IMG/VR virus record: IMGVR_UViG_2562617151_000005
DNA: 23,946 nucleotides
Reading direction: 5' to 3' (one strand)
DNA from: a virus
Taxonomy: Duplodnaviria; Heunggongvirae; Uroviricota; Caudoviricetes
This document shows, piece after piece, positions 1 to 23,763 of this stretch. The position numbers were made by a program, and so were the translations under genes. Position 1 is the stretch's first letter; each line of letters opens with the position of its first letter. Below the pieces are notes generated by a model, which worked only from the letters and a program-made list of their open reading frames with translations, was not told the DNA's origin and searched no databases.

Positions 1-1131
1 TCAAATGACCAGTTTTTTCCACTCCTTACCGCGTACATCGTTGTAAATATCGGTCATTTTTTGATTCGAATGGCCTAGCAAAATTTTGGTATCAACCCCC
101 TGCTCTCTGAACAATCGCTCTGATAAAGATCTCTGCTCATGGAAAGAGGGTGGGGTGCCATTAGCACGCCAGTTGTAATCCACAGAATCCCGGGCTTTTT
201 TAAATGCAACGGTTAATGTTGCTGGCTTAACCATCCCGCCGCGCTTAGCTGTCCCTTTCGCGTGATGGTGGTGCAATAGCCACGGACTAAGAACGCAATC
301 GCGGCAGGATGACACTACATCATCCAGGGTGAGATTTAATTTATCGCAACGCAGAGCCAGAGGGATGGCAATCCGGGTTCCTGTTTTTTGCTGTTCGACA
401 TGAAGATAACCATCCCGGATATCCGAAAATTGCATTTTGCAAATATCTGAAAGGCGCTGGCCTGTCATCAGTGCCAGCAGCATACCGCGCTGTAAAAAGT
501 AACCATTCTTTTCCGCTGCGTTATAAATCATCATCCACTCATCAAAAGTCAGTCGCTGTCTTGATATCCGCACCTGCGGTTTTTTTGCCGATTCTGCAGG
601 GTTAAAGCCTGGCGGGACATCGCCCGTTTGCTGAGCTTCCCGGAAAACATCGATCAGTACTTTCCTGAAAATTTGTCCCATTCTGTTATGTCCTCTGGCC
701 TTGTACTCTTCCAGTACTGATACCACATCTTTTACGGTTATGGCATCTAACGGTCTGGTGCCAAAACGTTCATCAAATACCCTGAGAGGGGCCGCTTTCT
801 GTTTCAGCGTGTTGAGTTTGATCTCGCCGTTTTCATATCTTTCCTGTTGAATTTTTCTGTAATTATTCAGAAAAATGGTAACGGTTGATGAACCGCCGGT
901 ATCACTAATAATTTTCTCCTGCAGACTGAGCATTTGTTCCATTTGCTGCCGGGCAAGACGGCTGTTCGCTTCTGCTGCAATAGTTTCTGCCAGTTTCTGG
1001 TCAATACTGCCGAGACCGTGATTTTTGCCTGTTATGGGATGCCTGTAACGCCAGTAAACTTTGTTATTTCTTTTGTCAAAATACGGAGATAATCCCGGAA
1101 CATCGGTTTTATATTTTCGCGGGCGCGCCAT
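1..1131 (-). CDS. int: Tyrosine-recombinase phage integrase (lambda Int family); complete, stop at 1-3
   Basis: 376-aa ORF in track; C-terminal half carries the R...HxxR...Y catalytic layout typical of lambda-type integrases; immediately downstream of an overlapping Xis-like gene, the usual xis-int arrangement. Confidence 0.9.
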   Translation of the reverse strand: MARPRKYKTDVPGLSPYFDKRNNKVYWRYRHPITGKNHGLGSIDQKLAETIAAEANSRLARQQMEQMLSLQEKIISDTGGSSTVTIFLNNYRKIQQERYENGEIKLNTLKQKAAPLRVFDERFGTRPLDAITVKDVVSVLEEYKARGHNRMGQIFRKVLIDVFREAQQTGDVPPGFNPAESAKKPQVRISRQRLTFDEWMMIYNAAEKNGYFLQRGMLLALMTGQRLSDICKMQFSDIRDGYLHVEQQKTGTRIAIPLALRCDKLNLTLDDVVSSCRDCVLSPWLLHHHHAKGTAKRGGMVKPATLTVAFKKARDSVDYNWRANGTPPSFHEQRSLSERLFREQGVDTKILLGHSNQKMTDIYNDVRGKEWKKLVI

Positions 1132-1357
1132 CTTCCAGTATCCTCTTCAAAGCAGGGTGATCTGTGGCGATCACCTCCGGCTTGTTTACCATTCCGACAA
1201 AGCGAGCTTGCGGATCCACTCGCCAGCGTCTTCCAACTTTTTTGGGGAGAGGAAATATCATTCCGGCTTTAGCGTATTTACTTAACGTACTCGGAGTAGG
1301 GACCGGTTCACTGAATTCCTCTTTTGCCCACTCAGTGAGCAGAATAAGTCTTGCCAT
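1109..1357 (-). CDS. xis: Excisionase (lambda Xis-like)
   Basis: 82-aa ORF; segment IFPLPKKVGRRWRV resembles lambda Xis IFPPPVKDGREYLF by eye; 3' end overlaps int start by 23 nt. Confidence 0.8.
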   Translation of the reverse strand: MARLILLTEWAKEEFSEPVPTPSTLSKYAKAGMIFPLPKKVGRRWRVDPQARFVGMVNKPEVIATDHPALKRILEDGAPAKI

Positions 1358-1421
1358 GAGCGTCGTTCGCTAATCATGGTCGCCGCCACTATAGCTGGTG
1401 GGCAACGACCGGGGTTGAACA

Positions 1422-3893
1422 TTAAAAATCAGCCTGATTTGGGATCAGTTTTTGCCAGATAGCTGAAACGTATTTTGCCTGGTAACGGGCGTCATCAAGT
1501 GCATTATGGCGCTCACCTTCGAATGGAATAGCCGTTCTGGCATCGAAGTCTATGGCTTTCCCCAGCTCAACGATTGTGCGTACATCGCGATCGTTGTAGT
1601 AACGCCACGGGCAGGGGATCCCCTGCCGTTCGTATGAACGGCGCAAAATCGTGTTGTCGAAGTTGGCTCCATTTCCCCAAACCTGAACAAAAAATTCACC
1701 GGAGTTTTCGTCGATAAATTCCCGCAATTGTAACAGTGCATCATCTAACGGGATTTCATCGGTCATAATGGCAGATTGCGCTTCGCGTGATTGCTTAAGC
1801 CACCATTTAATGGTGTCCCGATCAATGACTCCGCCAGCAGTTTCCAGATCGATAGTCTTACTAAATTCCGGTCCCATATCTCCGGTTTGCGGATCGAAAA
1901 ATATTGCACCTATTGAGATGATCGGGGCATCAGGATTTTTTCCCATGGTTTCAAGGTCGATCATTAGATGGTCACACGTCCTGCTGGTGGATGTGATTTC
2001 TTGATGACCGTTCACCTTAATTGAGTGATCTGCCGTCTCGCCAGTTTCATTATCGCTATCGTGATGCTGATTGCCGCCAGTGTTCTCCTTGTGTGGATGT
2101 TCAGCGCCTTCCATTTCCTCCGGATCATCTTCCTGAACTTCAGGCTGATACTCTTCATCGAATGTTTCCTGGTATGTTGCGTCGCCCATTACCGCGCCAC
2201 AATCAGGGCAGTTGCCGCCGCCGGTCTGACCGCAGGCGGTGCAGACTTTTTCCACTTCCTGTTGCGCCACTGATTCAGGCTGTTTCGTTTCTGGCTCGTT
2301 TTGTAACGCATTTGGGCTGTTTTGTTCCGCTTTCTGGTCGTTCTGTTCCGTTTCTTGCTGGTTCTGGTTCACAGAATCGCGGGTCTGGTTCCCCTTAACC
2401 CATTTCGGATCATTCGGGTCGCTAATCCCTTCAACAAATTCACCACGTGATACTGCAAGCAGTTCATCGGCGTCAGGCTGGCTGATATTGGCTGCCTGCA
2501 TAATTTTGTTTACTTCGTCAGCGGTAACTTTTACTGACCCTGGTTGTGCGGTCGTGTCAGATGCACCAGTATTTTGTTGTGAACCTGAGTATGTACCGTT
2601 TTTGCGGGCGAAATATTCTTCTTTCGTGATTTCAGTAGCCCCAGCAGACAGCGCCTTATCCAGACCAGAAAGTTTGTTTGCGCGACCGTATTTTTCGCCA
2701 TCCTTGTCGGTGAAGAGGAAGTAGAACGGCCCCTCACGTTCTACAGATGGTTCGACTTCCACTTTGCATTCGGTTTTTTCGTTGTCCGGAATTGCCGTTT
2801 CCACTGCATCAGTTTCTGGTACTGGCGACGAGAGAGTATCAGTTGCGCTCTGATTTGTTCCTTCATCTTCAAACACGCCCTTTGTAGTCAGGTATTCAGT
2901 AATGTATTTGTTCAGTGCCACAGGGTCTTTGTGAATGTCGATCGGACGTTCACGGACAAGGCCAAAAATAGTCTGGCGGTCGTAGCGAAGGGCATCAGGC
3001 TGTTTGCGCATTGATGCCGAGATACGCTTCCAGTCTTCGCGGTCGTTGTCGATAACTTCATTTTTTGCCCAGCGATGGATGCTGCCGTCAATGTTTCCGG
3101 CATCCACATCACCAGGCCAGAGAGCGTAGGCCAGTTCGTCATCCAGTGTTTTCCATGTCTGCTTGTATTCGCGATGAATGGCAGCAATGACCGGGTTGAT
3201 TTTTCCTGTTGAATTTTCAGTGTGCTGTTGATTGGCTCTGGCGCGGGCGAGATCAACAACAGACGTGTATTTTCCGGCTTCCTTGCGTTCACCTTCGCGA
3301 CGTTTTTTCCAGATGCGCATCTCTGCCTGAATTTCGGGCCATTTGGCACCAGGCTTACATTTATGCTTAACCCACCCGATGGCATGCAGCTTAAGCTCCG
3401 GATACATGGCGTTAACTTCTGGCATTTTCATCAACGCTTCAACGATATGTCCGTCGAATGTTGCCATGTCTTCCTGCAACAGTTCCTGCGCGCTAATAAC
3501 CATATCAACGGTGATGTTTTCACATGTGTCGAACTTAACCATGACAGCGTTCTGTACTTCAGGGGCCAGCTTGTCAAAAGTGACGTTCATCGGATCGGAT
3601 TCAGTCTCAACCGGGACAAAGGAAGCAGACGCCTCATCCCAGCGGTTTTCCTGCATATATTCAGCATCCCAGGAATCTAGGGCAGGGCGGGGTATACCGG
3701 GTTTATCCTCGCAGACAAGAAATTTATAAGCGCAGTCCTGAGCAGCCGGATAATGTTCCAGGAATTGCCAGTGAAATTTTGCGCGGGCGCGACGTTCATC
3801 ACCGGCTTCAATGGCAGTGGCTACAGCGACTGCACCTTCTTCCTTTATTGCCTGTTCGTCCGGAATGGCGGCGCAAATAAAGACTTTACTCAT
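1422..3893 (-). CDS. Large early-left-operon protein with C-terminal DEDDh (DnaQ-like) 3'-5' exonuclease domain and central Cys4 zinc ribbon
   Basis: 823-aa ORF; C-terminal region shows Exo I (MIDLETMG), Exo II (VWGNGANFD) and Exo III (HNALDDARY) motifs; central CTACGQTGGGNCPDCG; acidic and Q/E-rich low-complexity linker. Confidence 0.8.
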   Translation of the reverse strand: MSKVFICAAIPDEQAIKEEGAVAVATAIEAGDERRARAKFHWQFLEHYPAAQDCAYKFLVCEDKPGIPRPALDSWDAEYMQENRWDEASASFVPVETESDPMNVTFDKLAPEVQNAVMVKFDTCENITVDMVISAQELLQEDMATFDGHIVEALMKMPEVNAMYPELKLHAIGWVKHKCKPGAKWPEIQAEMRIWKKRREGERKEAGKYTSVVDLARARANQQHTENSTGKINPVIAAIHREYKQTWKTLDDELAYALWPGDVDAGNIDGSIHRWAKNEVIDNDREDWKRISASMRKQPDALRYDRQTIFGLVRERPIDIHKDPVALNKYITEYLTTKGVFEDEGTNQSATDTLSSPVPETDAVETAIPDNEKTECKVEVEPSVEREGPFYFLFTDKDGEKYGRANKLSGLDKALSAGATEITKEEYFARKNGTYSGSQQNTGASDTTAQPGSVKVTADEVNKIMQAANISQPDADELLAVSRGEFVEGISDPNDPKWVKGNQTRDSVNQNQQETEQNDQKAEQNSPNALQNEPETKQPESVAQQEVEKVCTACGQTGGGNCPDCGAVMGDATYQETFDEEYQPEVQEDDPEEMEGAEHPHKENTGGNQHHDSDNETGETADHSIKVNGHQEITSTSRTCDHLMIDLETMGKNPDAPIISIGAIFFDPQTGDMGPEFSKTIDLETAGGVIDRDTIKWWLKQSREAQSAIMTDEIPLDDALLQLREFIDENSGEFFVQVWGNGANFDNTILRRSYERQGIPCPWRYYNDRDVRTIVELGKAIDFDARTAIPFEGERHNALDDARYQAKYVSAIWQKLIPNQADF

Positions 3894-3985
3894 TTTGTTT
3901 TACCTCATTACAGATTTAAGGGTGAACAAATCCCTGCCATTGCTGGCATATAAGAATGAAACCGGATATTTATTACGGAACTGTT

Positions 3986-4177
3986 TTAAAGACCTGCCGG
4001 GATTTCGTTATTATCCTGGTGAATAACTTTATCGACCGGGTAACAGTTACCGGGAATTTTCTGTTCGGTTGCTGCAGTCACACACTCCTGCATTGTCCTG
4101 TGAACACTGACTGCAATATCAACTGGCTCTCCGGAAACAAGAAAAACTGTCAGAACAAGTGCAAATGCTGTATTCAT
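3986..4177 (-). CDS. ydfD: YdfD-like small protein with hydrophobic N-terminus (Qin-prophage ydfD homologue)
   Basis: Internal Met of the 81-aa track ORF gives 63 aa MNTAFALVLTVFLVSGEP...; ATG (4177-4175) overlaps the dicB stop (4176-4174) in an ATGA arrangement, i.e. translational coupling. Confidence 0.75.
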   Translation of the reverse strand: MNTAFALVLTVFLVSGEPVDIAVSVHRTMQECVTAATEQKIPGNCYPVDKVIHQDNNEIPAGL

Positions 4178-4362
4178 TGTGCACATCCTTTTTGTATCGG
4201 ACGTAAACGGGCCAGCATTGAAAGAATGCATATTTTATTTAATAACTCCCGTTCGTGTTTTCTCTTGTTAATGGCATCTTCAGTAAATACAGGGTTACTG
4301 ATAGTGACACCAATTTCAAAACAACCTTCAGACGTATTAACGTTTGGTAATAACGTTTCCAT
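4174..4362 (-). CDS. dicB: Cell-division inhibitor DicB
   Basis: 62 aa from internal Met of the 97-aa track ORF: METLLPNVNTSEGCFEIGVTISNPVFTEDAINKRK..., near-identical to K-12 DicB as I recall it; lies immediately downstream of dicF as in Qin. Confidence 0.85.
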   Translation of the reverse strand: METLLPNVNTSEGCFEIGVTISNPVFTEDAINKRKHERELLNKICILSMLARLRPIQKGCAQ

Positions 4363-4531
4363 TATCGCGTCCTCAACAATGAATTTTGTGATGCGGTGCC
4401 TGGTGCCTCCAGGTGACGTTAACCAGTTAACAATTAACGCCGGATACAGAGAATCCACCCATAACACTGTTTTTGGTTTTAACTGTTCCGCGTGCGCTGA
4501 GCCGCATTCACCGCATCACAAAATTCACTTT

Positions 4532-4589
4532 AAAAAGGGCGGCAGAGCAGTCACGGAGTAAAACTGATACCGCCAAACGTCACCAGAAA
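4532..4589 (-). ncRNA. dicF: DicF small RNA (ftsZ-targeting) with intrinsic terminator
   Basis: Minus-strand sequence TTTCTGGTGACGTTTGGCGGTATCAGTTTTACTCCGTGACTGCTCTGCCGCCCTTTTT matches my recollection of DicF; GC stem plus U-run at the 3' end; directly upstream of dicB. Confidence 0.8.
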
Positions 4590-4920
4590 ATTGATAACAG
4601 AGGGCGTTGCAGCGGGGTTGTCGCTTAAGCGTATGGTCAACCTGACAACCCGGTGTCCTCAACGGGGAAGGAATAACCCCGCCATACTTACCGCCGCGCC
4701 ATTTCGCGGAGTGCCACAACCGGAAGCGCACGGTCGAACTAAATTTAACGACACCGTACAGAGAGACCAATTTCGCCGTGCGCTTTCGCGTTATGCCCTG
4801 ACTTTTCAGGGACATATCCTTTCAGTAAACTGTCAGTGCCGGATGTTCACCCGTGTCCGGCGCACGCACTCCACCTGACCCGTGGAGAACTCCTTAATTA
4901 CCAACCCTCAGGAGGGTGAA

Positions 4921-5199
4921 ATGGATAAAAAGCAAATTGAGGCCCTGCAATCTATTATTGAAAAACAAGATGAAGCTATCAGGATTCTTTCATATCGCAC
5001 TGATATGATACTAAATATGCTTTCTGCATTAACGGCTGCGCTTGGTGGTACAAAAACAAACGTATACCGCGAAGTTGTTATTCAACAGATAGATAAATTT
5101 GAAAAAACCATACCAGGTATTAATGCTCATCTTGCAGAACAAGAGAAAGACCATGCTCTTATGGCAATTTCTTCAGTAGCTCTCCCGAAAGTTGAGTAG
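4921..5199 (+). CDS. Hypothetical small coiled-coil protein (92 aa), on the strand opposite the early-left operon
   Basis: Strong SD AGGAGG 7 nt upstream of ATG at 4921; AT-rich codon usage; heptad-like charged sequence; 3' end overlaps the convergent ORF 5159-5572. Confidence 0.45.
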   Translation: MDKKQIEALQSIIEKQDEAIRILSYRTDMILNMLSALTAALGGTKTNVYREVVIQQIDKFEKTIPGINAHLAEQEKDHALMAISSVALPKVE

Positions 5200-5572
5200 T
5201 TTTAATTGTTGTTTTGAAATAATCACTGCTTTCACATTTGAGTGATTTCATGGCAATCCAAATGCGGGCCTCTGTGCCTGCATTTGGTTCCAGTTGCTGT
5301 AGACGTTTTGCGTCTTCCAAAAGTAAGGCGATAATGTGTTTCAGCTTCTCATCATTTGCTTGATTCTTGTTTTCAGGCGAATTCTGTCCGCCGAATAGGC
5401 GCTTCTCTTCATACAGACCTATAAAGGCACGACGCACGTTACCGGATATAGTATCGATGGTTTCTTTTTCTACGGTACTCAGGTCAAGAGTCGCCAGTTG
5501 AGAGCGAACCACATTCGATGCCATTTCCAGGAATGGTACTGGTAAATCTTTAAATTCCATCGTCAACCTCAT
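5159..5572 (-). CDS. Hypothetical early-left-operon protein (137 aa; alternative start at 5560 gives MEFKDL...)
   Basis: ORF start overlaps the stop of the upstream ydfA-like gene by 1 nt (TGATG); no family recognised. Confidence 0.5.
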   Translation of the reverse strand: MRLTMEFKDLPVPFLEMASNVVRSQLATLDLSTVEKETIDTISGNVRRAFIGLYEEKRLFGGQNSPENKNQANDEKLKHIIALLLEDAKRLQQLEPNAGTEARIWIAMKSLKCESSDYFKTTIKTTQLSGELLKKLP

Positions 5573-5724
5573 CAGTCAGTGTTTCTGGTTAACCAGCGAC
5601 GCGCGCCAGCTTCAGTTTTAAACGTTTTGCTTCTGGTATACGTCATCGCGGTAAACGTGCCGTCCTGGTTGGGGAACACGCCACATACCAGAGATTCGTT
5701 GTTGCCAAGATTGAGCATATCCAT
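5572..5724 (-). CDS. ydfA: YdfA-like small protein (50 aa), first gene of the leftward operon
   Basis: Internal Met of the 77-aa track ORF gives MDMLNLGNNESLVCGVFPNQDGTFTAMTYT..., resembling K-12 YdfA from memory; sits just downstream (leftward) of OL-like palindromes. Confidence 0.65.
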   Translation of the reverse strand: MDMLNLGNNESLVCGVFPNQDGTFTAMTYTRSKTFKTEAGARRWLTRNTD

Positions 5725-5909
5725 GTTGACCTCATTTCCCCTTAACGCCGGGGTAGCGGAACAAAAACCTGCTGCATAGTTATTAAAGTTGAACCCTGCC
5801 GTCATGTTCTTACGCCTCGGGCTGGCTACTTAACCCCTGACCACTGCCTGGTAACTCGAAGTATTGCCCTGCATTCTGTGGGGCGGGGTGGGTTGGTATG
5901 AAAAGAAGG

Positions 5910-5947
5910 ATACCCATAGGTATTTAAAAAGTAAATACCCATGGGTA
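5910..5947. promoter_or_regulatory. OL-like operator pair: ATACCCATAGGTAT (5910-5923) and perfect palindrome TACCCATGGGTA (5936-5947)
   Basis: Two related palindromes about 25 bp apart in the gap between the repressor 3' end and the leftward operon. Confidence 0.5.
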
Positions 5948-5989
5948 AATTTTTGCGGTGTCTTAACTGGTGACTAGTTGTTTGGTGAG

Positions 5990-6409
5990 CTATGATGCGT
6001 TTTGTGCTTTCTTTTTACGGATTTCTTCGTAGATCATATTGTAATACTGTTTTTTCTCTTCAAGAGTTTTTAATAATTTATCCGCTTCACTTTCTGGCAG
6101 TTCGTCTAAGAGATCTAAAAAAATACGTTGTCGTGGCGTTAGAACCCTTGTTTCATAACTGGAGGCTGTGTTCGTTGATGATGAAACGATACCATCCATC
6201 CATCCCCGGGGTAACCCAAAGGACTCTTCGATAATCTCCACCATATCATCAGCGATCCGTTTTTTTCCCTTTTTCCCCTCTGGGTACAACATTCTTGATA
6301 CATAAGAAGGCTCGCGCCCGATCTTTCTGGCCACGTTAACCGCTTTACCATCGCATTTCTCATCACGAATTTTGATGAGTTGCTGTCGTCTAAATTCATA
6401 TTTGTCCAT
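5990..6409 (-). CDS. Prophage immunity repressor candidate (HTH, CI-position, no S24 peptidase domain recognised)
   Basis: 139 aa; HTH-like GKAVNVARKIGREPSYVSRML; divergent from the Cro-like gene; no SD upstream of the ATG, consistent with a leaderless PRM-type transcript as in lambda cI. Confidence 0.7.
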   Translation of the reverse strand: MDKYEFRRQQLIKIRDEKCDGKAVNVARKIGREPSYVSRMLYPEGKKGKKRIADDMVEIIEESFGLPRGWMDGIVSSSTNTASSYETRVLTPRQRIFLDLLDELPESEADKLLKTLEEKKQYYNMIYEEIRKKKAQNAS

Positions 6410-6446
6410 AGGTAAATAATAGATGCGATTACCGCAAGGTAAACAA

Positions 6447-6485
6447 CCTGTGGGTATTGACTTTTGTTTACCTGTGGGTATTCTT
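6447..6485. promoter_or_regulatory. OR/PR-like region: direct repeats CCTGTGGGTATT (6447-6458, 6471-6482) with TTGACT -35 (6457-6462) and TATTCT -10 (6479-6484)
   Basis: Repeats share the TGGGTA half-site with the OL palindromes; also inverted repeat GGTAAACAA/TTGTTTACC; located between divergent repressor and cro-like starts; SD AAGGAG before ATG 6510. Confidence 0.5.
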
Positions 6486-6509
6486 TGCTGTGTTTACTAA
6501 GGAGTAGCT

Positions 6510-6791
6510 ATGGAAGAATTAAGAATATTTCTCAATTCTCTTTCGTCAGATGAACAGCGTATGTTTGCATGCGAGTGTGGTACCAGCATCGGTTATCTAA
6601 GAAAGGCATTGAGTAAAGGTCAAGTGTTAGGGGCATCGTTATGTGTCCTTATTGAGCGAGCCAGTAATGGTGAAGTTACACGTCAGCAACTAAGGCCTTT
6701 TGATTGGATGAATATTTGGCCCGAGCTGGAAGATACCAAAACGTTAACACAACCACTTTCTAGGAGCTTGATTCATGAAAATCAAGCATGA
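6510..6791 (+). CDS. Cro-like HTH regulator (YdaS-like)
   Basis: 93 aa; position and orientation of cro; segment ERASNGEVTRQQLRP resembles the YdaS family as I recall it. Confidence 0.65.
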   Translation: MEELRIFLNSLSSDEQRMFACECGTSIGYLRKALSKGQVLGASLCVLIERASNGEVTRQQLRPFDWMNIWPELEDTKTLTQPLSRSLIHENQA

Positions 6792-7200
6792 ACACATCCG
6801 CATGGCGATGAATGTCTGGGCGCATCCGGACGGCGAAAAAGTGCCGGCTGCGAAAATTACCAAAGCGTATTTCGAGCTGGGAATGACGTTCCCGGAACTG
6901 TATGACGACAGCCATCCGGAAGCCCTGGCCCGTAATACCCAGAAAATTTTCCGTTGGCTGGATAAAGACACCCCTGATGCTGTTGAAAAAATGCAGGCTC
7001 TGTTACCGGCGATCGAAAAGGCGATGCCGCCTTTGCTGGTGGCCCGTATGCGCAGCCACAGTTCTGAATATTACCGTGAGATCGTCGAACGGAGGGATCG
7101 GCTGGTGAAGGATGTCGATGATTTTGTTGCGTCAGCGGTTGTTTTGTATGACCAGATGAATCGCGGCGGCCCGGCAGGGAATGCTGTGGTGATGCACTAA
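6775..7200 (+). CDS. YdaT-like protein (CII-position regulator)
   Basis: 141 aa beginning MKIKHEHI, which I recall as the YdaT N-terminus; overlaps the cro-like gene by 17 nt. Confidence 0.6.
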   Translation: MKIKHEHIRMAMNVWAHPDGEKVPAAKITKAYFELGMTFPELYDDSHPEALARNTQKIFRWLDKDTPDAVEKMQALLPAIEKAMPPLLVARMRSHSSEYYREIVERRDRLVKDVDDFVASAVVLYDQMNRGGPAGNAVVMH

Positions 7201-7207
7201 AAGCACG

Positions 7208-8182
7208 GTGTTCGGGGGTTTTATGAGCAGCAAGCTTCATGGTCTTGTCTGGGAAGGGTGCGCCTTCACCGGCATGATCTTATCCAGGGTGGCGGTTATG
7301 GCCCGTCTTGCAGACTACAGCAATGACGAGGGCGTGTCATGGCCTGCCATTGAAACTATCCGGCGTCAGATCGGTGCAAGAAGTGAATCCACAGTGAAAT
7401 CGGCTATTGCAGAACTGGCGAAAGAGGGCTGGCTGACGAAGGAAGAGCGTAAGGTCGGTGGGCGTAATGTAAGCAATATCTATCGGCTTAATGTGGAAAA
7501 ACTCGAAGCAGCTGCGGCGGCGCGTGAGTCATATAAACCGAAAAGAAAAATTAGCCCGGCAAAAAATGACCCGTTAACAGTTGACCCGTCAAATATTGCC
7601 CCCTCAACGGTTGACCCGTCAAATTTTGATGGATCAACTGTTGATAAAAAACTGCCGATTAGGGGGCCGATGATTGACCCCGATCCGTCAGTATTAAAAC
7701 CTGATCCGTCAGATAAAAGATCTTCTTGTCCGGACGCTTCGCAACCGGACCCGCAGACGGCTGAACAGGATTTTTTAACCCGACACCCTGACGCGGTTGT
7801 GTTCAGTGCGAAAAAACGCCAGTGGGGAAGTCAGGAAGATTTGGTGTGCGCACAGTGGATCTGGGGACGAATCGTGAGTCTTTACGAGCAGGCGGCCAGC
7901 TATGATGGCGAGATCACTAGACCGAAAGAACCCAACTGGACAGCATGGGCCAATGACGTTCGCACAATGCGGATGCTGGATGGCAGAACTCACAGACAAA
8001 TTTGTGAAATGTTTGGGCGTCTCCAGCGGGATTCGTTCTGGGTAAAAAACATCATGAGTCCGGCAAAACTCCGGGAAAAATGGGATGAACTGGTTATCCG
8101 CCTGGGGCGTTCGCCTGCGCAGCGTTGCGTGAATCACATTTCTGAACCGGACACTGAAATTCCGCCGGGCTTCAGGGGGTAA
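7208..8182 (+). CDS. Replication initiation protein (lambda O-like; N-terminal winged-helix, internal iteron-encoded repeat)
   Basis: 324 aa; N-terminal HTH-like region; peptide repeat TVDPSN encoded by DNA iterons; position after cro/cII-like genes. Confidence 0.7.
   Translation: MFGGFMSSKLHGLVWEGCAFTGMILSRVAVMARLADYSNDEGVSWPAIETIRRQIGARSESTVKSAIAELAKEGWLTKEERKVGGRNVSNIYRLNVEKLEAAAAARESYKPKRKISPAKNDPLTVDPSNIAPSTVDPSNFDGSTVDKKLPIRGPMIDPDPSVLKPDPSDKRSSCPDASQPDPQTAEQDFLTRHPDAVVFSAKKRQWGSQEDLVCAQWIWGRIVSLYEQAASYDGEITRPKEPNWTAWANDVRTMRMLDGRTHRQICEMFGRLQRDSFWVKNIMSPAKLREKWDELVIRLGRSPAQRCVNHISEPDTEIPPGFRG
7567..7714. repeat. Iteron cluster, candidate replication origin inside the O-like gene
   Basis: TGACCCGTCAAAT perfect at 7582-7594 and 7612-7624 (30-bp spacing), degenerate copies at 7567-7579, 7675-7691 and 7702-7714, with an A-rich stretch between; analogous to lambda ori inside O. 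Confidence 0.55.
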
Positions 8183-8326
8183 GTGTTAATTTCTGGTCAT
8201 GAGGTAATTTTCAGGAGGGCTTGTGGCAAAAGTTTTTACACAAGAAGAGCGGGAAAAAATTAAAGGGCAGGTTGTTGAACTCGTACGCCAGAGTGGGCGC
8301 GAGACGTTACGACAACTGGAAACTAA

Positions 8327-9522
<1,196 letters not shown>

Positions 9523-10036
9523 CTAATACTGGGGCAACAAGATATCTGATGAGCGTTCTGGCCAGAGAGCTGGTTGCCAGTGGCGATGTATACAACTCTG
9601 GTTACGGGTTATTCCCGTCTGAACAGGCGCGTAAGGACTGGCAAAATGCCCGTAAAAAGCTCTCAAGGGCAAAGCTGAAGAAACCATCTGCGGTTGATCC
9701 GGACCTTATCTGGTCATTACCTGACGGAGAAATACGTCGCTACGACAGGCGTCAGAACATAATCTGTCGCGAGTGCCGGAAGAGTGAAGTTATGCAGCGC
9801 ATATTGTCGTTTTATCAGGGTGATGTTCGGTATTTATTGAAGTGACGAGATTAAAGTGCATTAGTTCAGATGCAAATTGACATTTTGTGGCACAGGGTAG
9901 AGCTAGCGTGGTTGTCCGCTTTGTGCCAATAGCGGACATTGCTGGCTCATGGTATGTTAGTTTAAGGAGGCAGGTTATGCCCTGTATTTCGCTGTGGTAT
10001 AATAGTTGCGCAATTGATACAAGGGAGCGTTACATC

Positions 10037-10999
10037 GTGAAAATTGTTTTCGAGGTTAATGGAAAGAAAGTTCCACTAAAATCTTTAAAATACATAAGCA
10101 AAAAAGATCAACTCGAAGTAATGAAAAACTGGTTCTTTGAAAACTTTGAAGATCCGGCAAATGCTTGTCCGTATGAAAGTAGAGAAGGTGGCTATGCTTA
10201 CATATATGGCGGGCCGTATGATGCGAGCGAAGAACTACAATCCATCTTCGGTCAATATGTTAAATCTGAGTATATTGAGGAATTAGTAGATGAATTACAA
10301 ACACAATGTTTTGACTGGTCTGGAAACTCAAATAATATAGATGATTGGTACGATGATGATATCTACGACGCTGTAACGTCTTCCGGTAATCCGTATTTAA
10401 AATTCATTGATAATATCGATAAAATAAAAAAACTTGCAAAAGATAAAACTGAACAACAGCAAAAAAACCACTTGCTTAGTTTGCTCTACACGAATGTTAT
10501 TACAGCTTTGGAAACGCTTTATGTTGAGCTATTCATTAATTCTATAGAGAAAGATGATGTCTACATAGCCAATTGTATAGAAAAAGGTAAGACTGAATTT
10601 AAAGTAAGCAAAGATATTGCTGCGTTGCCTTTCAAGGGTGAACCCATCGAGAAAATTAGGGGAGAGCTAATCAGGTCAATCAAGGAACACTTGATCAGTG
10701 CAAGCTGGCATAGCACTAAAAAGGTAATCGACCGCTATGAAGCTACATTCGATATAAAAGTACAAAAAGACTGTCCGATAGAAGCTATTGAATTGGCAAC
10801 CCTCAATCGAAATCACTTAGTGCATCGTGGTGGAAAGGATAAAGAAGGGAACCTCGTAGTGATTACAGACCAGGATCTTGAAACGCTGATTGAAAATGCA
10901 TCGAACCTGGCAATTATGCTCTACAACAGTTTAAATGTAGCAACGAATAAAACCACCATTTTGCAACCAGATGACAAACCGTTCATTCATGAATTTTAA
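10037..10999 (+). CDS. Hypothetical protein A of AT-rich cassette (about 320 aa) with C-terminal HEPN-like Rx4H motif
   Basis: Long ORF; proposed GTG start at 10037 preceded by AGGGA; TTGACA at 9878-9883 upstream; motif LNRNHLVHRGG near C-terminus; markedly AT-rich by eye. Confidence 0.6.
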   Translation: MKIVFEVNGKKVPLKSLKYISKKDQLEVMKNWFFENFEDPANACPYESREGGYAYIYGGPYDASEELQSIFGQYVKSEYIEELVDELQTQCFDWSGNSNNIDDWYDDDIYDAVTSSGNPYLKFIDNIDKIKKLAKDKTEQQQKNHLLSLLYTNVITALETLYVELFINSIEKDDVYIANCIEKGKTEFKVSKDIAALPFKGEPIEKIRGELIRSIKEHLISASWHSTKKVIDRYEATFDIKVQKDCPIEAIELATLNRNHLVHRGGKDKEGNLVVITDQDLETLIENASNLAIMLYNSLNVATNKTTILQPDDKPFIHEF

Positions 11000-11014
11000 T
11001 AGCGCAGGTCATAC

Positions 11015-12016
11015 ATGGATATTCGCACACGAAAGACAAAATTTTTAGAGTCGTTAGATTCAACTGAAGTGATACGCAAAGCAGTAAGTCTCGCTATAGA
11101 TTGCATTATTGATAATCATAATAGTAATGAAGATACCCCCTTAGTTATTACCAGCTATGATGATCTCTGTAGAATCCAGGTGCTAAATTATGTACAGGAG
11201 TTTTGCGAAGCTGCATTCCCTGATATGGATGAATATTACTTTAGTCCTAACATACTTCGCATCAACGGCAAGACTAGTGAAGAAGCTTGTATTAACTTAA
11301 TTAAACTCTTAAGAAGTACAAAAGGCATGCTATTCTGGTCCGATGCCCCATCGTGGTTCGCTAGCCTCCCCGACGGATTATTCCATGTTGTTAACATTGA
11401 TCAAAAAATCGTTACTCGCGGCCTTAATAAGAAAAACTCTAAGCCGACAATAATCAATAAAGATTACAGTGTAGATACACTACTATCAGAGCTATTTTTG
11501 AATGGCGCACACATGGAGCAACCCAACGTACACAACGTTTCTGAGGGAAACATGAAGTTCTATGATGAATGCCATGCTGGATTAATCAGACCAATACCCG
11601 CTCCAATAGGCGCGTCATACGATGAAGAGATCACAATTAATTCTCCAGATTGGCAAAAGCTCGCGTGTGTAGCTTTACGCCGCTATCAGTCGAAGGAATG
11701 TCATGACGGAATGCAATGGGATACAACCGATCATGGTTGGACTGATGTAATCGCGTATCCATTCGTCGAAGAAATACAATCAATGGATAATAGTGGTTAT
11801 CGACAATGTTTAGTTGGGCTGGTCACAATAAACAATTCAAATGCAAATTCTCCGTACCTATCTACCGTTTGGATACATCTATTTTATCGCAGGAGAGGGT
11901 TATTAAGTAAGTTATGGCCAAAATTACAAGAGTTATATGGAAGTAACTTCGAAATTGAGCGACCTAATGAAAATATGAAAGCATTTCTGAAAAGTGCGAA
12001 ACACGCAGATTACTAA
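11015..12016 (+). CDS. Hypothetical protein B of AT-rich cassette (333 aa)
   Basis: ORF 15 nt downstream of gene A on the same strand; AT-rich; no Walker A or other recognisable motif. Confidence 0.6.
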   Translation: MDIRTRKTKFLESLDSTEVIRKAVSLAIDCIIDNHNSNEDTPLVITSYDDLCRIQVLNYVQEFCEAAFPDMDEYYFSPNILRINGKTSEEACINLIKLLRSTKGMLFWSDAPSWFASLPDGLFHVVNIDQKIVTRGLNKKNSKPTIINKDYSVDTLLSELFLNGAHMEQPNVHNVSEGNMKFYDECHAGLIRPIPAPIGASYDEEITINSPDWQKLACVALRRYQSKECHDGMQWDTTDHGWTDVIAYPFVEEIQSMDNSGYRQCLVGLVTINNSNANSPYLSTVWIHLFYRRRGLLSKLWPKLQELYGSNFEIERPNENMKAFLKSAKHADY

Positions 12017-12422: not shown

Positions 12423-12476
12423 TTTTATATTGGCGAGGTGACGGGAGTTAAGTAGAATTGCTGCGGGTGCTTGAGG

Positions 12477-12512
12477 CTATCTGCCTCAGGCATGAACACC
12501 AAAGGCAGATAG
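12477..12512 (+). promoter_or_regulatory. Perfect 10-bp inverted repeat (CTATCTGCCT ... AGGCAGATAG, 16-nt loop) in the hok leader
   Basis: Seen directly; hok-family mRNAs are known to carry extensive leader structure. Confidence 0.4.
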
Positions 12513-12633
12513 AGAAAAGCCCCAGTTAACATTATGCGTCCTGCAAGACGTTTAACATTAATCTGAGGCTCAATCTATGAACGGCAAATCTAGGTTAGCC
12601 TCTTACGTGCCGAAAGGCAAGGAGAAGCAGGCT

Positions 12634-12789
12634 ATGAAGCAGCAAAAGGCGATGTTAATCGCCCTGATCGTCATCTGTTTAACCGTCATAATGACGGCAC
12701 TGGTAACGAGGAAAGACCTCTGCGAGGTACGAATCCGAACCGGCCAGACGGAGGTCGCTGTCTTCACAGCTTACGAACCTGAGGAGTAA
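12634..12789 (+). CDS. hok: Hok/Gef-family type I toxin (HokD/RelF-like)
   Basis: 51 aa MKQQKAMLIALIVICLTVIMTALVTRKDLCEVRIRTGQTEVAVFTAYEPEE; SD AAGGAG 9 nt upstream. Confidence 0.85.
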   Translation: MKQQKAMLIALIVICLTVIMTALVTRKDLCEVRIRTGQTEVAVFTAYEPEE

Positions 12790-17163: not shown

Positions 17164-17239
17164 GGCCCTTTAGCTCAGTGGTGAGAGCGAGCGACTCATA
17201 ATCGCCAGGTCGCTGGTTCAAATCCAGCAAGGGCCACCA
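17164..17239 (+). tRNA. tRNA with CAU anticodon, Ile2-like (ileX/ileZ type) rather than Met
   Basis: Hand-folded cloverleaf: acceptor GGCCCTT/AAGGGCC, D-stem GCTC/GAGC, anticodon loop CTCATAA, T-loop TTCAAAT, encoded CCA; resembles E. coli ileX from memory. Confidence 0.8.
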
Positions 17240-17246
17240 TCACATA

Positions 17247-17323
17247 CCGCCATTAGCTCATCAGGAAAGAGCGCCAGCCTTCGAAGCTGGTTGCGCGGAG
17301 TTCGGGTCCCCGAAGGCGGTCCA
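17247..17323 (+). tRNA. tRNA-Arg (UCG) with atypical T-arm
   Basis: Hand-fold: acceptor CCGCCAT/AAGGCGG (one A-A mismatch), D-stem GCTC/GAGC, anticodon stem CCAGC/GCTGG, loop CTTCGAA, T-loop TTCGGGT with one T-stem mismatch, encoded CCA. Confidence 0.55.
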
Positions 17324-17336
17324 TTATCTGTATCCT

Positions 17337-17413
17337 GCGTTGTTAGCTCAGCCGGACAGAGCAATTGCCTTCTAAGCAATCGGTCACTGGTTCGAATCCA
17401 GTACAACGCGCCA
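17337..17413 (+). tRNA. tRNA-Arg (UCU)
   Basis: Acceptor GCGTTGT/ACAACGC, D-stem GCTC/GAGC, anticodon loop CTTCTAA, T-loop TTCGAAT, encoded CCA. Confidence 0.85.
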
Positions 17414-17458: not shown

Positions 17459-17672
17459 CTCACAATTCAGGCGGTTGACTGTTGTCTGGTTTGCGGGGAG
17501 TTTGTTAAAAGAAACTGGCATGGTGAATCCCCCTGTGCGGAGGGGCAATCAGCGAGTAGGTATATGGGATAATCGCGGATTCAGGTGCTGGTACTGAATT
17601 CACCGGGAGGCACCCGGCACCATGCAATGGCACATAGCGCCACTCTCCAGCCCCTCTCCGGAGGGGCTTTTC
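17459..17672 (+). other. Structured module A (about 215 bp), candidate sRNA or regulatory leader ending in an intrinsic terminator
   Basis: Shares blocks with module B: CTCACAATTCAG, TTGAC, TTTGTTAAAA, CATGGTGAATCCCCCTGNGCGGAGGGGC, CACCGGGAGGCACCCGGCACCATG, and terminator GCCCCTC-TCCG-GAGGGGC plus T-run. Confidence 0.4.
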
Positions 17673-17926
17673 TGTGCCGGATACATCACAGTTTCTGGAA
17701 CCTTAGGTACTACAGTATCAGTCAGGGTGCTATATTTTCAGATGTGATGAAAGCCTGTCAGCAGGCAGGGCGTATCGGAAATGACCCAGTAGAGAAAACG
17801 TTGACTCAGATACCGGTGCTGAGTTACCGGGAAACCGGCATCACATGACCGCTATCCTTCCAGGCCCATCCGCTCCGGTGGGCCTTTTTACTGCAGAAAA
17901 CAGGTTCCCCGTTAAATGCTATGTTG

Positions 17927-18160
17927 CTCACAATTCAGTAAGTTGACAGTTGCCTGTCAGACTGGGCATTTGTTAAAAAAATTTCGCATGGTGAATCCCC
18001 CTGAGCGGAGGGGCGACTGGTGACGGTATAATCTCTGATTATCAAAACGAGAATGACGCGGGTTTAGTGGCACCGGGCTGAACTCACCGGGAGGCACCCG
18101 GCACCATGTGCATGATGATACAGATACGCGGCTTTAGCCCCTCTCCGGAGGGGCTTTCTT
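17927..18160 (+). other. Structured module B, paralogue of module A with a TTGACA -35-like hexamer
   Basis: Same conserved blocks in the same order as module A; identical terminator hairpin at 18137-18154 followed by T-rich tract. Confidence 0.4.
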
Positions 18161-18166
18161 ATGGAC

Positions 18167-23179: not shown

Positions 23180-23763
23180 TGGCATTCAGAATGAGTGAAC
23201 AACCACGGACCATAAAAATTTATAATCTGCTGGCCGGAACTAATGAATTTATTGGTGAAGGTGATGCATATATTCCGCCTCATACAGGTCTGCCAGCAAA
23301 CAGTACCGATATTGCACCACCAGATATTCCTGCTGGCTTTGTGGCTGTTTTCAACAGTGATGAGGCATCGTGGCATCTCGTTGAAGACCATCGGGGTAAA
23401 ACGGTTTATGACGTAGCGTCAGGGGACGAGTTATTTATTTCTGAACTCGGTCCGTTACCGGAAAATGTTACCTGGTTATCGCCGGAAGGGGAGTTTCAGA
23501 AGTGGAACGGCACAGCCTGGGTGAAGGATACGGAAGCAGAAAAACTGTTCCGGATCCGGGAGGCGGAAGAAACAAAAAACAACCTGATGCAGGTAGCCAG
23601 TGAGCATATTGCGCCGCTTCAGGATGCTGCAGATCTGGAAATTGCAACGGAGGAAGAAACCTCATTGCTGGAAGCCTGGAAAAAGTATCGGGTGTTGCTG
23701 AACCGTGTTGATACATCAACTGCACCTGATATTGAGTGGCCTACGAACCCTGTCAGGGAGTAA
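23179..23763 (+). CDS. tfa: Tail fibre assembly protein (Tfa)
   Basis: 194 aa [39 protein letters not shown]... recognised as the lambdoid Tfa family; TAATG overlap with upstream stop. Confidence 0.8.

What the first reader, a model, noticed from the sequence alone, without database searches (positions are those of the whole stretch)
3986..5724. Qin-type ydfA...dicF-dicB-ydfD module embedded in the early-left operon of a Rac-like int/xis/exo arm
dicF sRNA and dicB are recognisable at near-identity to the K-12 versions, with ydfD translationally coupled (ATGA overlap) to dicB. Unlike K-12 Qin, the block here is followed directly by a large DEDDh exonuclease gene, xis and int, so the mosaic differs. 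These genes inhibit host division when derepressed.
Basis: partly seen in the sequence, partly recalled or inferred. Interest (0 to 1): 0.45.

Follow-up and report, generated by a model that had tools for sequence, protein, structure and literature searches.

The report
Ordinary prophage dicBF cell-division-inhibitor operon
This stretch is a standard copy of the well-studied prophage dicBF operon (DicF small RNA, DicB and YdfD), sitting in a common E. coli prophage that integrates next to ompW, and its layout is the intact form of what survives as a broken remnant in K-12.

Summary
On the minus strand, 5724→3986 carries these genes:
- ydfA (DUF1391)
- an unknown 133-aa ORF
- dicF, 53/53 identical to K-12 (Rfam 76.7 bits)
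- dicB, 56/62 identical
- ydfD, 59/63 identical, overlapping dicB by ATGA

- **Exonuclease.** The claim that K-12 Qin lacks a following exonuclease is wrong. DNA homology to K-12 Qin (95.2%) runs from 20 bp past ydfC through dicF, dicB, ydfD and the ydfE pseudogene. It stops exactly where IS2E is inserted. K-12 YdfE residues 1-256 are 96.5% identical to the start of the 823-aa exonuclease here.
- **Intact Qin.** A Qin-site prophage in strain 101EVA has dicB-ydfD-exonuclease (91.6%)-xis-int next to rspB, the same order as here.
- **Rac.** The arm is not Rac-like. Int and xis match neither IntR/XisR nor IntQ, and only a non-catalytic middle part of the exonuclease resembles RecE.

The real mosaic differences from K-12 Qin are three:
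- a 686-bp block replaces ydfB-ydfC
- a different immunity module, with its own short repressor and four TACCCAYRGGTA operators
- an ompW-type int/xis

The int→dicF arm is present in 1652 of 5426 complete E. coli genomes. This is already known and of low interest.

The parts
1..1131 (-). Integrase, lambda type (Arm-DNA-binding plus tyrosine recombinase domains). It is the last gene of the leftward arm. In near-identical prophages it abuts ompW.
   Evidence: Pfam PF09003 and PF00589. E2348/69 and strain H3 have this int directly next to ompW. No significant similarity to IntQ or IntR.
1109..1357 (-). Excisionase
   Evidence: Pfam Exc PF07825 and PHROG 629 excisionase. Annotated excisionase in E2348/69.
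1422..3893 (-). 823-aa exonuclease, the full-length form of the K-12 ydfE pseudogene. N-terminal region of unknown function, a middle region shared with RecE, and a C-terminal DEDDh 3'-5' exonuclease domain.
   Evidence: PF16473, 227 bits, aa 642-813. DEDDh motif residues. aa 1-256 are 96.5% identical to K-12 YdfE. aa 262-625 are 39% identical to RecE aa 278-591. PHROG 2082 exonuclease matches full length.
3986..4177 (-). ydfD (63 aa, DUF1482; lysis protein in K-12). Its start overlaps the dicB stop by ATGA.
   Evidence: Pfam DUF1482, 88 bits. 59/63 identical to K-12 YdfD. Overlap read.
4174..4362 (-). dicB (62 aa), a MinC-dependent division inhibitor
   Evidence: Pfam DicB, 129.2 bits. 56/62 identical to K-12 DicB. 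The six substitutions are K2E, Q36H, V47L, L55P, M56I and P57Q.
4363..4536 (-). dicF-dicB spacer carrying the dicB ribosome-binding site. Also conserved in Rac between kilS and kilR.
   Evidence: Alignment A1. blastn: window 4378-4542 matches Rac L003 9250-9416 at 80.6%.
4537..4589 (-). dicF small RNA (53 nt), ending in a GC-rich hairpin followed by a U run
   Evidence: Rfam RF00039, 76.7 bits. 53/53 identical to K-12 dicF. Hairpin GGCGGUAUCAG...CUGCCGCCC followed by UUUUU in the fold.
4590..4906 (-). Non-coding leader upstream of dicF, homologous to K-12. It covers the stretch that in K-12 gives the 190-nt RNase III precursor of DicF.
   Evidence: blastn homology to K-12 Qin continues to window 4906, which is L002 17063, 20 bp past the ydfC stop. 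Only three differences from K-12 between about 4730 and 4590. Processing scheme from PMC10448788.
4907..5592 (.). 686-bp block that replaces ydfB-ydfC of K-12 Qin. This is the real mosaic difference inside the operon.
   Evidence: No K-12 Qin match between window 4907 and 5592. At least 80% of the stretch searched (window 4900-5600) is present in 124 of 5426 E. coli genomes.
5159..5560 (-). orf133, unknown function, in the operon between ydfA and dicF. GAGG six nt before the ATG.
   Evidence: PHROG 1363, E=5e-43, unknown function; no Pfam hit. Its N- and C-terminal halves match different phage proteins. Annotated hypothetical in E2348/69 and strain H3.
4921..5199 (+). Convergent 92-aa ORF overlapping the 3' end of orf133 by 41 nt. 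AGGAGG precedes the ATG. Whether it is a real gene is doubtful.
   Evidence: PHROG 18692, E=1e-62. Annotated hypothetical in RefSeq. In 57 IMG/VR loci it is 94-100% identical. Five loci carry a +1 frameshift and most substitutions are non-synonymous. No match in the phage collection or in the GTDB species representatives.
5572..5724 (-). ydfA (50 aa, DUF1391), first gene of the operon
   Evidence: Pfam DUF1391, 98.7 bits. 82% identical to K-12 YdfA and 80% to Rac YdaF.
5911..5947 (.). Two palindromic operator-like sites (5911-5922 and 5936-5947, TACCCAYRGGTA). They bracket a weak promoter candidate for the leftward operon: TTTACT, 17 nt, TATCCT at 5935-5907.
   Evidence: Six strand-hits at four sites against 0.27 expected; 0 of 100 shuffles reach 6. 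Weak promoter match, 8 of 12. The sites occur only in loci that carry this repressor.
5990..6409 (-). 139-aa repressor in the position of DicA, on the same strand as the operon and upstream of it
   Evidence: PHROG 5736 transcriptional regulator, E=6e-70. The C-terminal 46 aa are 33% identical to DicA, E=2e-7. No Pfam domain and no significant PDB match.
6445..6480 (.). Two further operator sites (6445-6456 and 6469-6480). They overlap divergent promoter-like sites for the repressor and for the cro-like gene.
   Evidence: Promoter-like sites at 6443-6416 (minus strand) and 6457-6484 (plus strand).
6510..6791 (+). Cro/YdaS-like regulator, divergent from the repressor, followed by a YdaT-like gene (6775-7200)
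   Evidence: Pfam YdaS_toxin below its cut-off (25.8 against 30 bits) and PHROG 35. YdaT_toxin, 40.9 bits.

Best explanation
This is the dicBF operon of a lambdoid prophage of the ompW-integrating type (PPompW). It is the same operon as ydfABC-dicF-dicB-ydfDE of K-12 Qin, but intact at its distal end.

**Shown here.** Gene content, order and strand. dicF is identical to K-12. DicB, YdfD and YdfA are conserved. The downstream exonuclease is the full-length form of K-12 ydfE.

**Inferred from K-12 work (PMC10448788, PMC5069750, PMC6832061, PMC8835842).**
1. In the lysogen the prophage repressor keeps the leftward promoter off. Here that repressor is a 139-aa protein in the DicA position. It probably binds the four TACCCAYRGGTA sites on both sides of its own gene.
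2. On derepression, one leftward transcript runs ydfA-orf133-dicF-dicB-ydfD-exo-xis-int.
3. RNase III and RNase E cut DicF out of this transcript. Its 3' end comes from the hairpin and U-run terminator, or from RNase III cleavage of read-through RNA.
4. DicF, with Hfq, pairs through its 3' part with the ftsZ ribosome-binding site and blocks FtsZ synthesis. It also represses xylR, pykA and manX.
5. Read-through RNA expresses DicB. DicB binds MinC and takes it to the septum via ZipA, which dissolves Z rings. DicB also blocks ManYZ-dependent phage DNA entry.
6. YdfD, coupled to dicB by the ATGA overlap, causes lysis when overproduced, by inhibiting the IspG step.

The net effect is arrest of host division when the prophage early-left operon fires.
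For: - Rfam DicF 76.7 bits, 53/53 identical to K-12.
- Pfam DicB, DUF1482 and DUF1391 all far above their cut-offs.
- 95.2% DNA identity to K-12 Qin over 1.78 kb, from just past ydfC to the IS2E junction.
- E2348/69 matches window 1-8326 at 98.8%. RefSeq annotates it as DUF1391 / dicB / DUF1482 / exonuclease / excisionase / integrase next to ompW.
- The same arm is 100% identical in strain H3.
- Terminator-like hairpin at the dicF 3' end.
- Operator repeats well above chance, and present only in loci with this repressor.
- Divergent promoter-like sites overlap the operators.
- The repressor's C-terminus is related to DicA.
- Mechanisms of the K-12 orthologues come from the papers read.
Against: - Nothing here measures expression or function.
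- DicB has six substitutions, three of them clustered at residues 55-57, with unknown effect on MinC binding.
- No strong sigma-70 consensus was found for the leftward promoter; the best candidate scores 8 of 12.
- The repressor has no recognised DNA-binding domain in Pfam or PDB. Its operator assignment rests on position, repeat statistics and co-occurrence in a handful of loci.
- The prophage carries an IS5 in a DUF977 gene, so it may be defective as a phage. That does not touch this operon.
Confidence: 0.9

Rival explanations
1. One reading: a new mosaic in which a Qin-type dicF/dicB/ydfD block has been moved into a Rac-like int/xis/exonuclease arm. On this view the junction with the exonuclease is a recombination novelty absent from K-12.
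For: A 443-nt stretch of the exonuclease gene (window 2027-2469) is 77% identical to recE, and aa 262-625 are 39% identical to RecE. The 5' leader of the operon (5737-5900) and the dicF-dicB spacer have Rac counterparts at 81-87%. K-12 shows only a pseudogene after ydfD.
Against: K-12 homology continues without a break through ydfD into ydfE and stops at the IS2E insertion. YdfE is 96.5% identical to exonuclease aa 1-256. An intact Qin-site prophage has the same dicB-ydfD-exonuclease-xis-int order. Int and Xis are unrelated to IntR and XisR. The catalytic domain is DEDDh and shows no alignment to the C-terminal part of RecE. The arm occurs in 1652 of 5426 genomes.
Confidence: 0.04
2. The module is a decaying, silent remnant. 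The genes are recognisable but no longer expressed or active, as in many cryptic prophages, so there is no division-inhibition phenotype in this host.
For: The prophage has an IS5 insertion in a DUF977 gene downstream of the replication genes. PPompW prophages are reported to be generally defective (PMC8112680). No strong leftward promoter consensus was found.
Against: Every ORF of the operon is intact from ydfA to int. dicF is 100% identical to K-12. Ribosome-binding sites and the ATGA coupling are kept. Repressor, operators and divergent promoters are intact. Even in the far more decayed K-12 Qin the operon is expressed and toxic when derepressed (PMC10448788).
Confidence: 0.06

Closest known systems
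dicBF operon of cryptic prophage Qin, E. coli K-12 (ydfABC-dicF-dicB-ydfDE, repressed by DicA)
   Same: The order ydfA ... dicF-dicB-ydfD-(ydfE/exonuclease) on one strand, downstream of a short repressor gene on that same strand. dicF is identical. DNA is 95.2% identical from 20 bp past ydfC to the IS2E junction. The dicB/ydfD ATGA overlap is the same. Operators flank the repressor gene as with DicA.
   Different: ydfB and ydfC are replaced by a 686-bp block (orf133 plus a convergent ORF). The exonuclease gene is whole here and truncated by IS2E in K-12. The repressor shares only its C-terminal 46 aa with DicA (33%) and has different operators. Int and xis are unrelated to intQ; close relatives integrate at ompW, whereas Qin lies between ydfJ and rspB.
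ompW-integrated lambdoid prophages (PPompW; E2348/69 prophage at 1.427-1.443 Mb; strain H3)
   Same: 98.8% identity to E2348/69 over window 1-8326. 100% identity to strain H3 over the int→dicF arm. Same gene order, ending at ompW in those genomes.
   Different: This window has an IS5 at 8327-9522 and different cargo after 9820 compared with E2348/69. Strain H3 carries a different immunity module in place of window 5771-6744.
Rac prophage early-left operon (racR | ydaG-ydaF-[sieB]-kilS-kilR-...-recE-recT-...-xisR-intR)
   Same: The same architectural logic: a DUF1391 gene first, a small RNA just upstream of a small division-inhibitor gene, then a large exonuclease, then xis and int. The sRNA-inhibitor spacer, the 5' leader and the middle of the exonuclease show real sequence similarity. 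A gene on the opposite strand sits between the DUF1391 gene and the sRNA in both.
   Different: KilR is unrelated to DicB. KilS differs from DicF in most of its body. The catalytic end of RecE shows no similarity to the DEDDh domain here. IntR, XisR and RacR are unrelated to the proteins here.

Membership tests
DicF RNA (Rfam RF00039) | Covariance-model score at or above the curated gathering score, over the whole model | tested here: met
   76.7 bits against 48, model positions 1-52 of 52, E=1.4e-15
DicF RNA (Rfam RF00039) | Target-pairing regions present: the 3' part for ftsZ and pykA, the 5' part for xylR | tested here: met
   53/53 identical to K-12 dicF. Pairing regions as defined in PMC5069750.
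DicF RNA (Rfam RF00039) | 3' hairpin followed by a U run, and a location inside the polycistronic operon just upstream of dicB | tested here: met
   Fold. dicF at 4589-4537 lies 174 nt upstream of the dicB start at 4362.
DicF RNA (Rfam RF00039) | [quoted passage not shown] | not testable with these tools
   Needs Northern blots in rnc and rne mutants and an ftsZ'-'lacZ reporter
DicB (Pfam PF05358) | Full-length match above the Pfam gathering score | tested here: met
   129.2 bits against 27, residues 1-62 of 62. 90.3% identical to K-12 DicB.
DicB (Pfam PF05358) | MinC- and ZipA-dependent block of Z-ring assembly | not testable with these tools
   Needs expression in wild-type and minC E156A hosts, followed by microscopy
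YdfD / DUF1482 lysis protein | Pfam match above cut-off, and a position immediately after dicB with overlapping stop and start | tested here: met
   88 bits against 25. 93.7% identical. ATGA at 4177-4174.
K-12 Qin-type dicBF operon as a whole | ydfB and ydfC lie between ydfA and dicF | tested here: not met
   No K-12 match in window 4907-5592. orf133 is unrelated to YdfB and YdfC.
K-12 Qin-type dicBF operon as a whole | ydfE follows ydfD | tested here: met
   Exonuclease aa 1-256 are 96.5% identical to YdfE. DNA homology runs to the IS2E junction.
K-12 Qin-type dicBF operon as a whole | DicA is the repressor | tested here: not met
   Only the C-terminal 46 aa align, at 33%. The N-terminal part is unrelated and the operators differ.
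Rac-type int/xis/exo arm | IntR-type integrase and XisR-type excisionase | tested here: not met
   blastp E-values of 1.3 or worse. No DNA match.
Rac-type int/xis/exo arm | RecE (exonuclease VIII) catalytic C-terminal domain, with recT next to it | tested here: not met
   The C-terminal domain is Rv2179c-like DEDDh. Similarity to RecE is confined to aa 262-625 against RecE 278-591. There is no recT in the arm.
DEDDh 3'-5' exonucleases (Pfam PF16473 / RNase_T clan) | Domain match above cut-off, with the D-E-D-D and H residues present | tested here: met
   227.2 bits against 27, aa 642-813. D646, E648, D746, H796 and D801. A weak match to an exodeoxyribonuclease structure, 8kel, E=1.5e-6.

The most novel reading that the evidence does not exclude
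The 686-bp block that replaces ydfB-ydfC may bring in a convergently transcribed 92-aa gene (4921-5199, plus strand) whose transcript runs head-on into the leftward operon just upstream of dicF. Together with a non-DicA repressor that has its own TACCCAYRGGTA operators, this copy of dicF/dicB would then be controlled separately from the Qin DicA-Rem circuit. Antisense or collision control would set how much DicF and DicB is made.
Probability: 0.08. Interest if true: 0.3.

Novelty: already known. Interest (0 to 1): 0.08.

Why it matters
It matters little as a discovery. The dicBF operon, its products and their targets are well characterised, and multiple copies in pathogenic E. coli prophages have been described. 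The useful outcome is a correction: K-12 Qin is the decayed version of this arrangement, not a different mosaic, and ydfE is the stump of a DEDDh exonuclease gene. The practical point is that this copy is under a different repressor from DicA. Its derepression conditions therefore need not match those worked out for K-12.

Tried and rejected
1. **Rac-like arm.** Protein and DNA comparisons of int, xis and the exonuclease with IntR, XisR and RecE. Rejected, apart from a shared non-catalytic middle region of the exonuclease.

2. **Repressor fold.** Pfam and PDB sequence searches on the 139-aa protein. Nothing was significant; the best hits were chance-level winged-helix (ADAR1 Z-alpha) matches at E≈0.08. 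Its role rests on position, a PHROG family, C-terminal similarity to DicA, and the operators.

3. **Leftward promoter.** The consensus scan found none upstream of ydfA. A relaxed scan gave only 8-of-12 candidates, the best placed being TTTACT-17-TATCCT between the two operators. The 'terminator' reported at 5947-5911 is simply the two operator palindromes pairing with each other.

4. **The convergent 92-aa ORF.**
   - tblastn against 50,697 phage records found no match.
   - A scan of GTDB species representatives found no relative.
   - IMG/VR gave 57 loci at 94-100% identity.
   - Too little divergence exists for a codon-position test. The variation that does exist (a frameshift in five loci, mostly non-synonymous changes) argues weakly against a conserved gene.

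5. **orf133.** There is no Pfam family. Its two halves match different phage proteins. Function was left open.

6. **KilS literature.** No paper in the library mentions it.
Full report
**What is there.** All elements below are on the minus strand of the window.

| Element | Coordinates | Evidence |
|---|---|---|
| ydfA | 5724-5572 | 50 aa; DUF1391, 98.7 bits |
| orf133 | 5560-5159 | no Pfam family; PHROG 1363, unknown function |
| dicF | 4589-4537 | Rfam RF00039, 76.7 bits against 48, whole model |
| dicB | 4362-4174 | Pfam DicB, 129 bits |
| ydfD | 4177-3986 | DUF1482, 88 bits |

- The dicB stop and the ydfD start share ATGA at 4177-4174.
- The finding's coordinates, 3986-5724, run exactly from the ydfD stop to the ydfA start.
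- Identity to K-12: dicF 53/53, DicB 56/62, YdfD 59/63, YdfA 41/50.
- dicF is complete, so its ftsZ-pairing 3' part is intact.
- The dicF 3' end folds into the expected GC-rich hairpin followed by UUUUU.

**What follows the block.** Downstream lie three genes.
- An 823-aa ORF (3893-1422). Its C-terminal 170 residues are an Rv2179c-like DEDDh exonuclease domain: PF16473, 227 bits, with residues D646, E648, D746, H796 and D801.
- An excisionase (1357-1109).
- A lambda-type integrase (1131-1).

- blastn aligns window 3127-4906 with K-12 Qin at 95.2% as one uninterrupted segment. In K-12 that segment starts 20 bp after the ydfC stop. It runs through dicF, dicB, ydfD and the ydfE pseudogene and ends at L002 18845. 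The IS2E element is annotated from 18844.
- At protein level, YdfE residues 1-256 are 96.5% identical to residues 1-256 of the exonuclease here. K-12 ydfE is therefore the 5' stump of this same gene, cut off by IS2E.
- Strain 101EVA has a prophage at the K-12 Qin site, next to rspB. Its order is repressor-ydfA-ydfB'-dicB-ydfD-exonuclease (2472 nt, 91.6% aa identity to the one here)-excisionase-integrase.

So 'dicB-ydfD followed directly by a large exonuclease, xis and int' is the normal intact state of Qin-type prophages. It is not a departure from them.

**The arm is not Rac-like in any strict sense.**
- Window 1-2026 has no DNA match to Rac.
- Int and Xis give no significant blastp hit to IntR, XisR or IntQ, nor to the 101EVA int and xis.
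- The exonuclease shares only a middle region with RecE: aa 262-625 against RecE 278-591, 39%. That region lies outside the catalytic domain identified here. The catalytic domain here is DEDDh and does not align with the C-terminal part of RecE.
- Some Rac similarity does exist elsewhere. The operon's 5' leader (5737-5900) is 87% identical to Rac. ydfA resembles ydaF. The dicF-dicB spacer (4378-4542) is 80.6% identical to the Rac kilS-kilR spacer.

**Where the mosaic really differs from K-12 Qin.**
1. Window 4907-5592 has no K-12 counterpart. ydfB and ydfC are replaced by orf133 and a convergent 92-aa ORF. At least 80% of this stretch is present in 124 of 5426 complete E. coli genomes.
2. The immunity module is different.
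   - The gene in the DicA position (6409-5990) encodes a 139-aa protein. It shares only its last 46 residues with DicA (33%, E=2e-7).
   - Four copies of the palindrome TACCCAYRGGTA flank this gene: 5911 and 5936 on the operon side, 6445 and 6469 on the cro side. That is six strand-hits against 0.27 expected, and 0 of 100 shuffles reach six.
   - The cro-side pair overlaps divergent promoter-like sites.
   - The motif is absent from the loci that carry other repressors: strain H3, 101EVA, K-12 Qin and Rac.
   - Strain H3 shares window 5770→3800 at 99.8% and 4600→1 at 100%, but has a different repressor. The left boundary of the immunity module is thus 46 nt upstream of the ydfA start.
3. The int/xis pair is of the ompW type. 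In E2348/69 (98.8% identical over window 1-8326) and in strain H3 this integrase abuts ompW. Prophages at this site have been described as PPompW, with well-conserved early regions (PMC8112680).

**How common it is.**
- Some part of the 2.6-kb region occurs in 4761 of 5426 complete E. coli genomes.
- At least 80% of the int→dicF arm occurs in 1652 of them.
- Isolated phages such as Tritos and mEp460_ev081 carry dicB with ydfD or dicF.
- The literature already records that the dicBF locus is widespread and present in several copies in O157:H7 prophages (PMC5069750).

**Mechanism.** Every step here is inferred from the K-12 orthologues; nothing was measured.
1. The prophage repressor holds the leftward promoter off.
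2. When repression is lifted, one transcript starting upstream of ydfA covers the operon.
3. RNase III and RNase E release DicF. The 53-nt form ends at the terminator (PMC10448788; PMC5069750).
4. DicF, with Hfq, blocks ftsZ translation through its 3' part and represses xylR and pykA.
5. DicB binds MinC and brings it to the septum through ZipA. It also blocks ManYZ-dependent phage DNA entry (PMC6832061).
6. YdfD is a lysis protein that inhibits the IspG step (PMC8835842, title and abstract).

Two differences from K-12 are expected. The trigger should differ, because the repressor is not DicA. And the transcript can continue into an intact exonuclease, xis and int.

**Weak points.**
- No good sigma-70 consensus was found for the leftward promoter. 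The best-placed candidate is TTTACT-17-TATCCT at 5935-5907, between and overlapping the two operators, at 8 of 12 matches.
- The repressor has no recognisable DNA-binding domain in Pfam or PDB.
- The convergent 92-aa ORF has a strong Shine-Dalgarno sequence and is annotated in RefSeq. However, five of 57 related loci carry a frameshift and most substitutions are non-synonymous. I do not treat it as an established gene.

**Verdict.** This is a routine, already annotated copy of a well-known operon in a common prophage family. Novelty: already known. Interest: low.

Noticed in passing
window 4378-4542 (minus strand) compared with K-12 Rac, L003 9250-9416: The spacer from the dicF 3' end to the dicB ribosome-binding site is 80.6% identical to the Rac spacer between the annotated sRNA kilS and kilR. 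KilS shares the base of the DicF terminator stem (GGCGGYATCAGTTTT ... CCGCCCTTTTT) but differs in the rest. KilS therefore looks like a positional paralogue of DicF, placed in front of an unrelated division inhibitor. No paper on KilS was found in the library.
   Followed up: partly
window 4921-5199 (+): A convergent 92-aa ORF inside the operon, with AGGAGG before its ATG, overlapping the orf133 3' end by 41 nt. It sits where sieB sits in Rac. It is confined to E. coli prophages: 57 IMG/VR loci at 94-100% identity, none in the phage records and none in the GTDB representatives. Five loci are frameshifted.
   Followed up: partly
window 8327-9522: An IS5 copy, 99.1% identical to K-12 IS5Y, with a CTAA target duplication (8323-8326 and 9523-9526). 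Compared with E2348/69 it is inserted in the DUF977 gene of the prophage.
   Followed up: yes
window 9887-12016 (+): Two adjacent ORFs of 370 and 333 aa that are absent from the E2348/69 prophage. The first has a sub-threshold HEPN/RES N-terminal domain hit and the second has no Pfam hit. They may be defence or other cargo genes sitting between the DUF977 gene remnant and the sok/hok region (sok at 12465-12639).
   Followed up: no
window 5771-6744: The immunity module (repressor, operators and cro-like gene) is swapped as a unit compared with strain H3. H3 is otherwise 99.8-100% identical from 5770 to position 1. The short repressor shares only a C-terminal 46-aa segment with DicA, presumably an oligomerisation part.
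   Followed up: partly
window 12465-12639; 17164-17410; 17489-18166; 23522-23720: Other Rfam hits in the prophage: sok antitoxin RNA, three tRNAs in a row, two copies of STnc100, and IS009 RNA.
   Followed up: no
window 1422-3893 (minus strand), aa 262-625: The large exonuclease shares a cysteine-containing, acidic middle region with RecE (up to about 77% DNA identity over 443 nt), including CxxCG...CPDCG. Its catalytic end, however, is DEDDh and does not align with the C-terminal part of RecE. The two large early-left exonucleases appear to share a non-catalytic scaffold with exchanged nuclease domains.
   Followed up: partly
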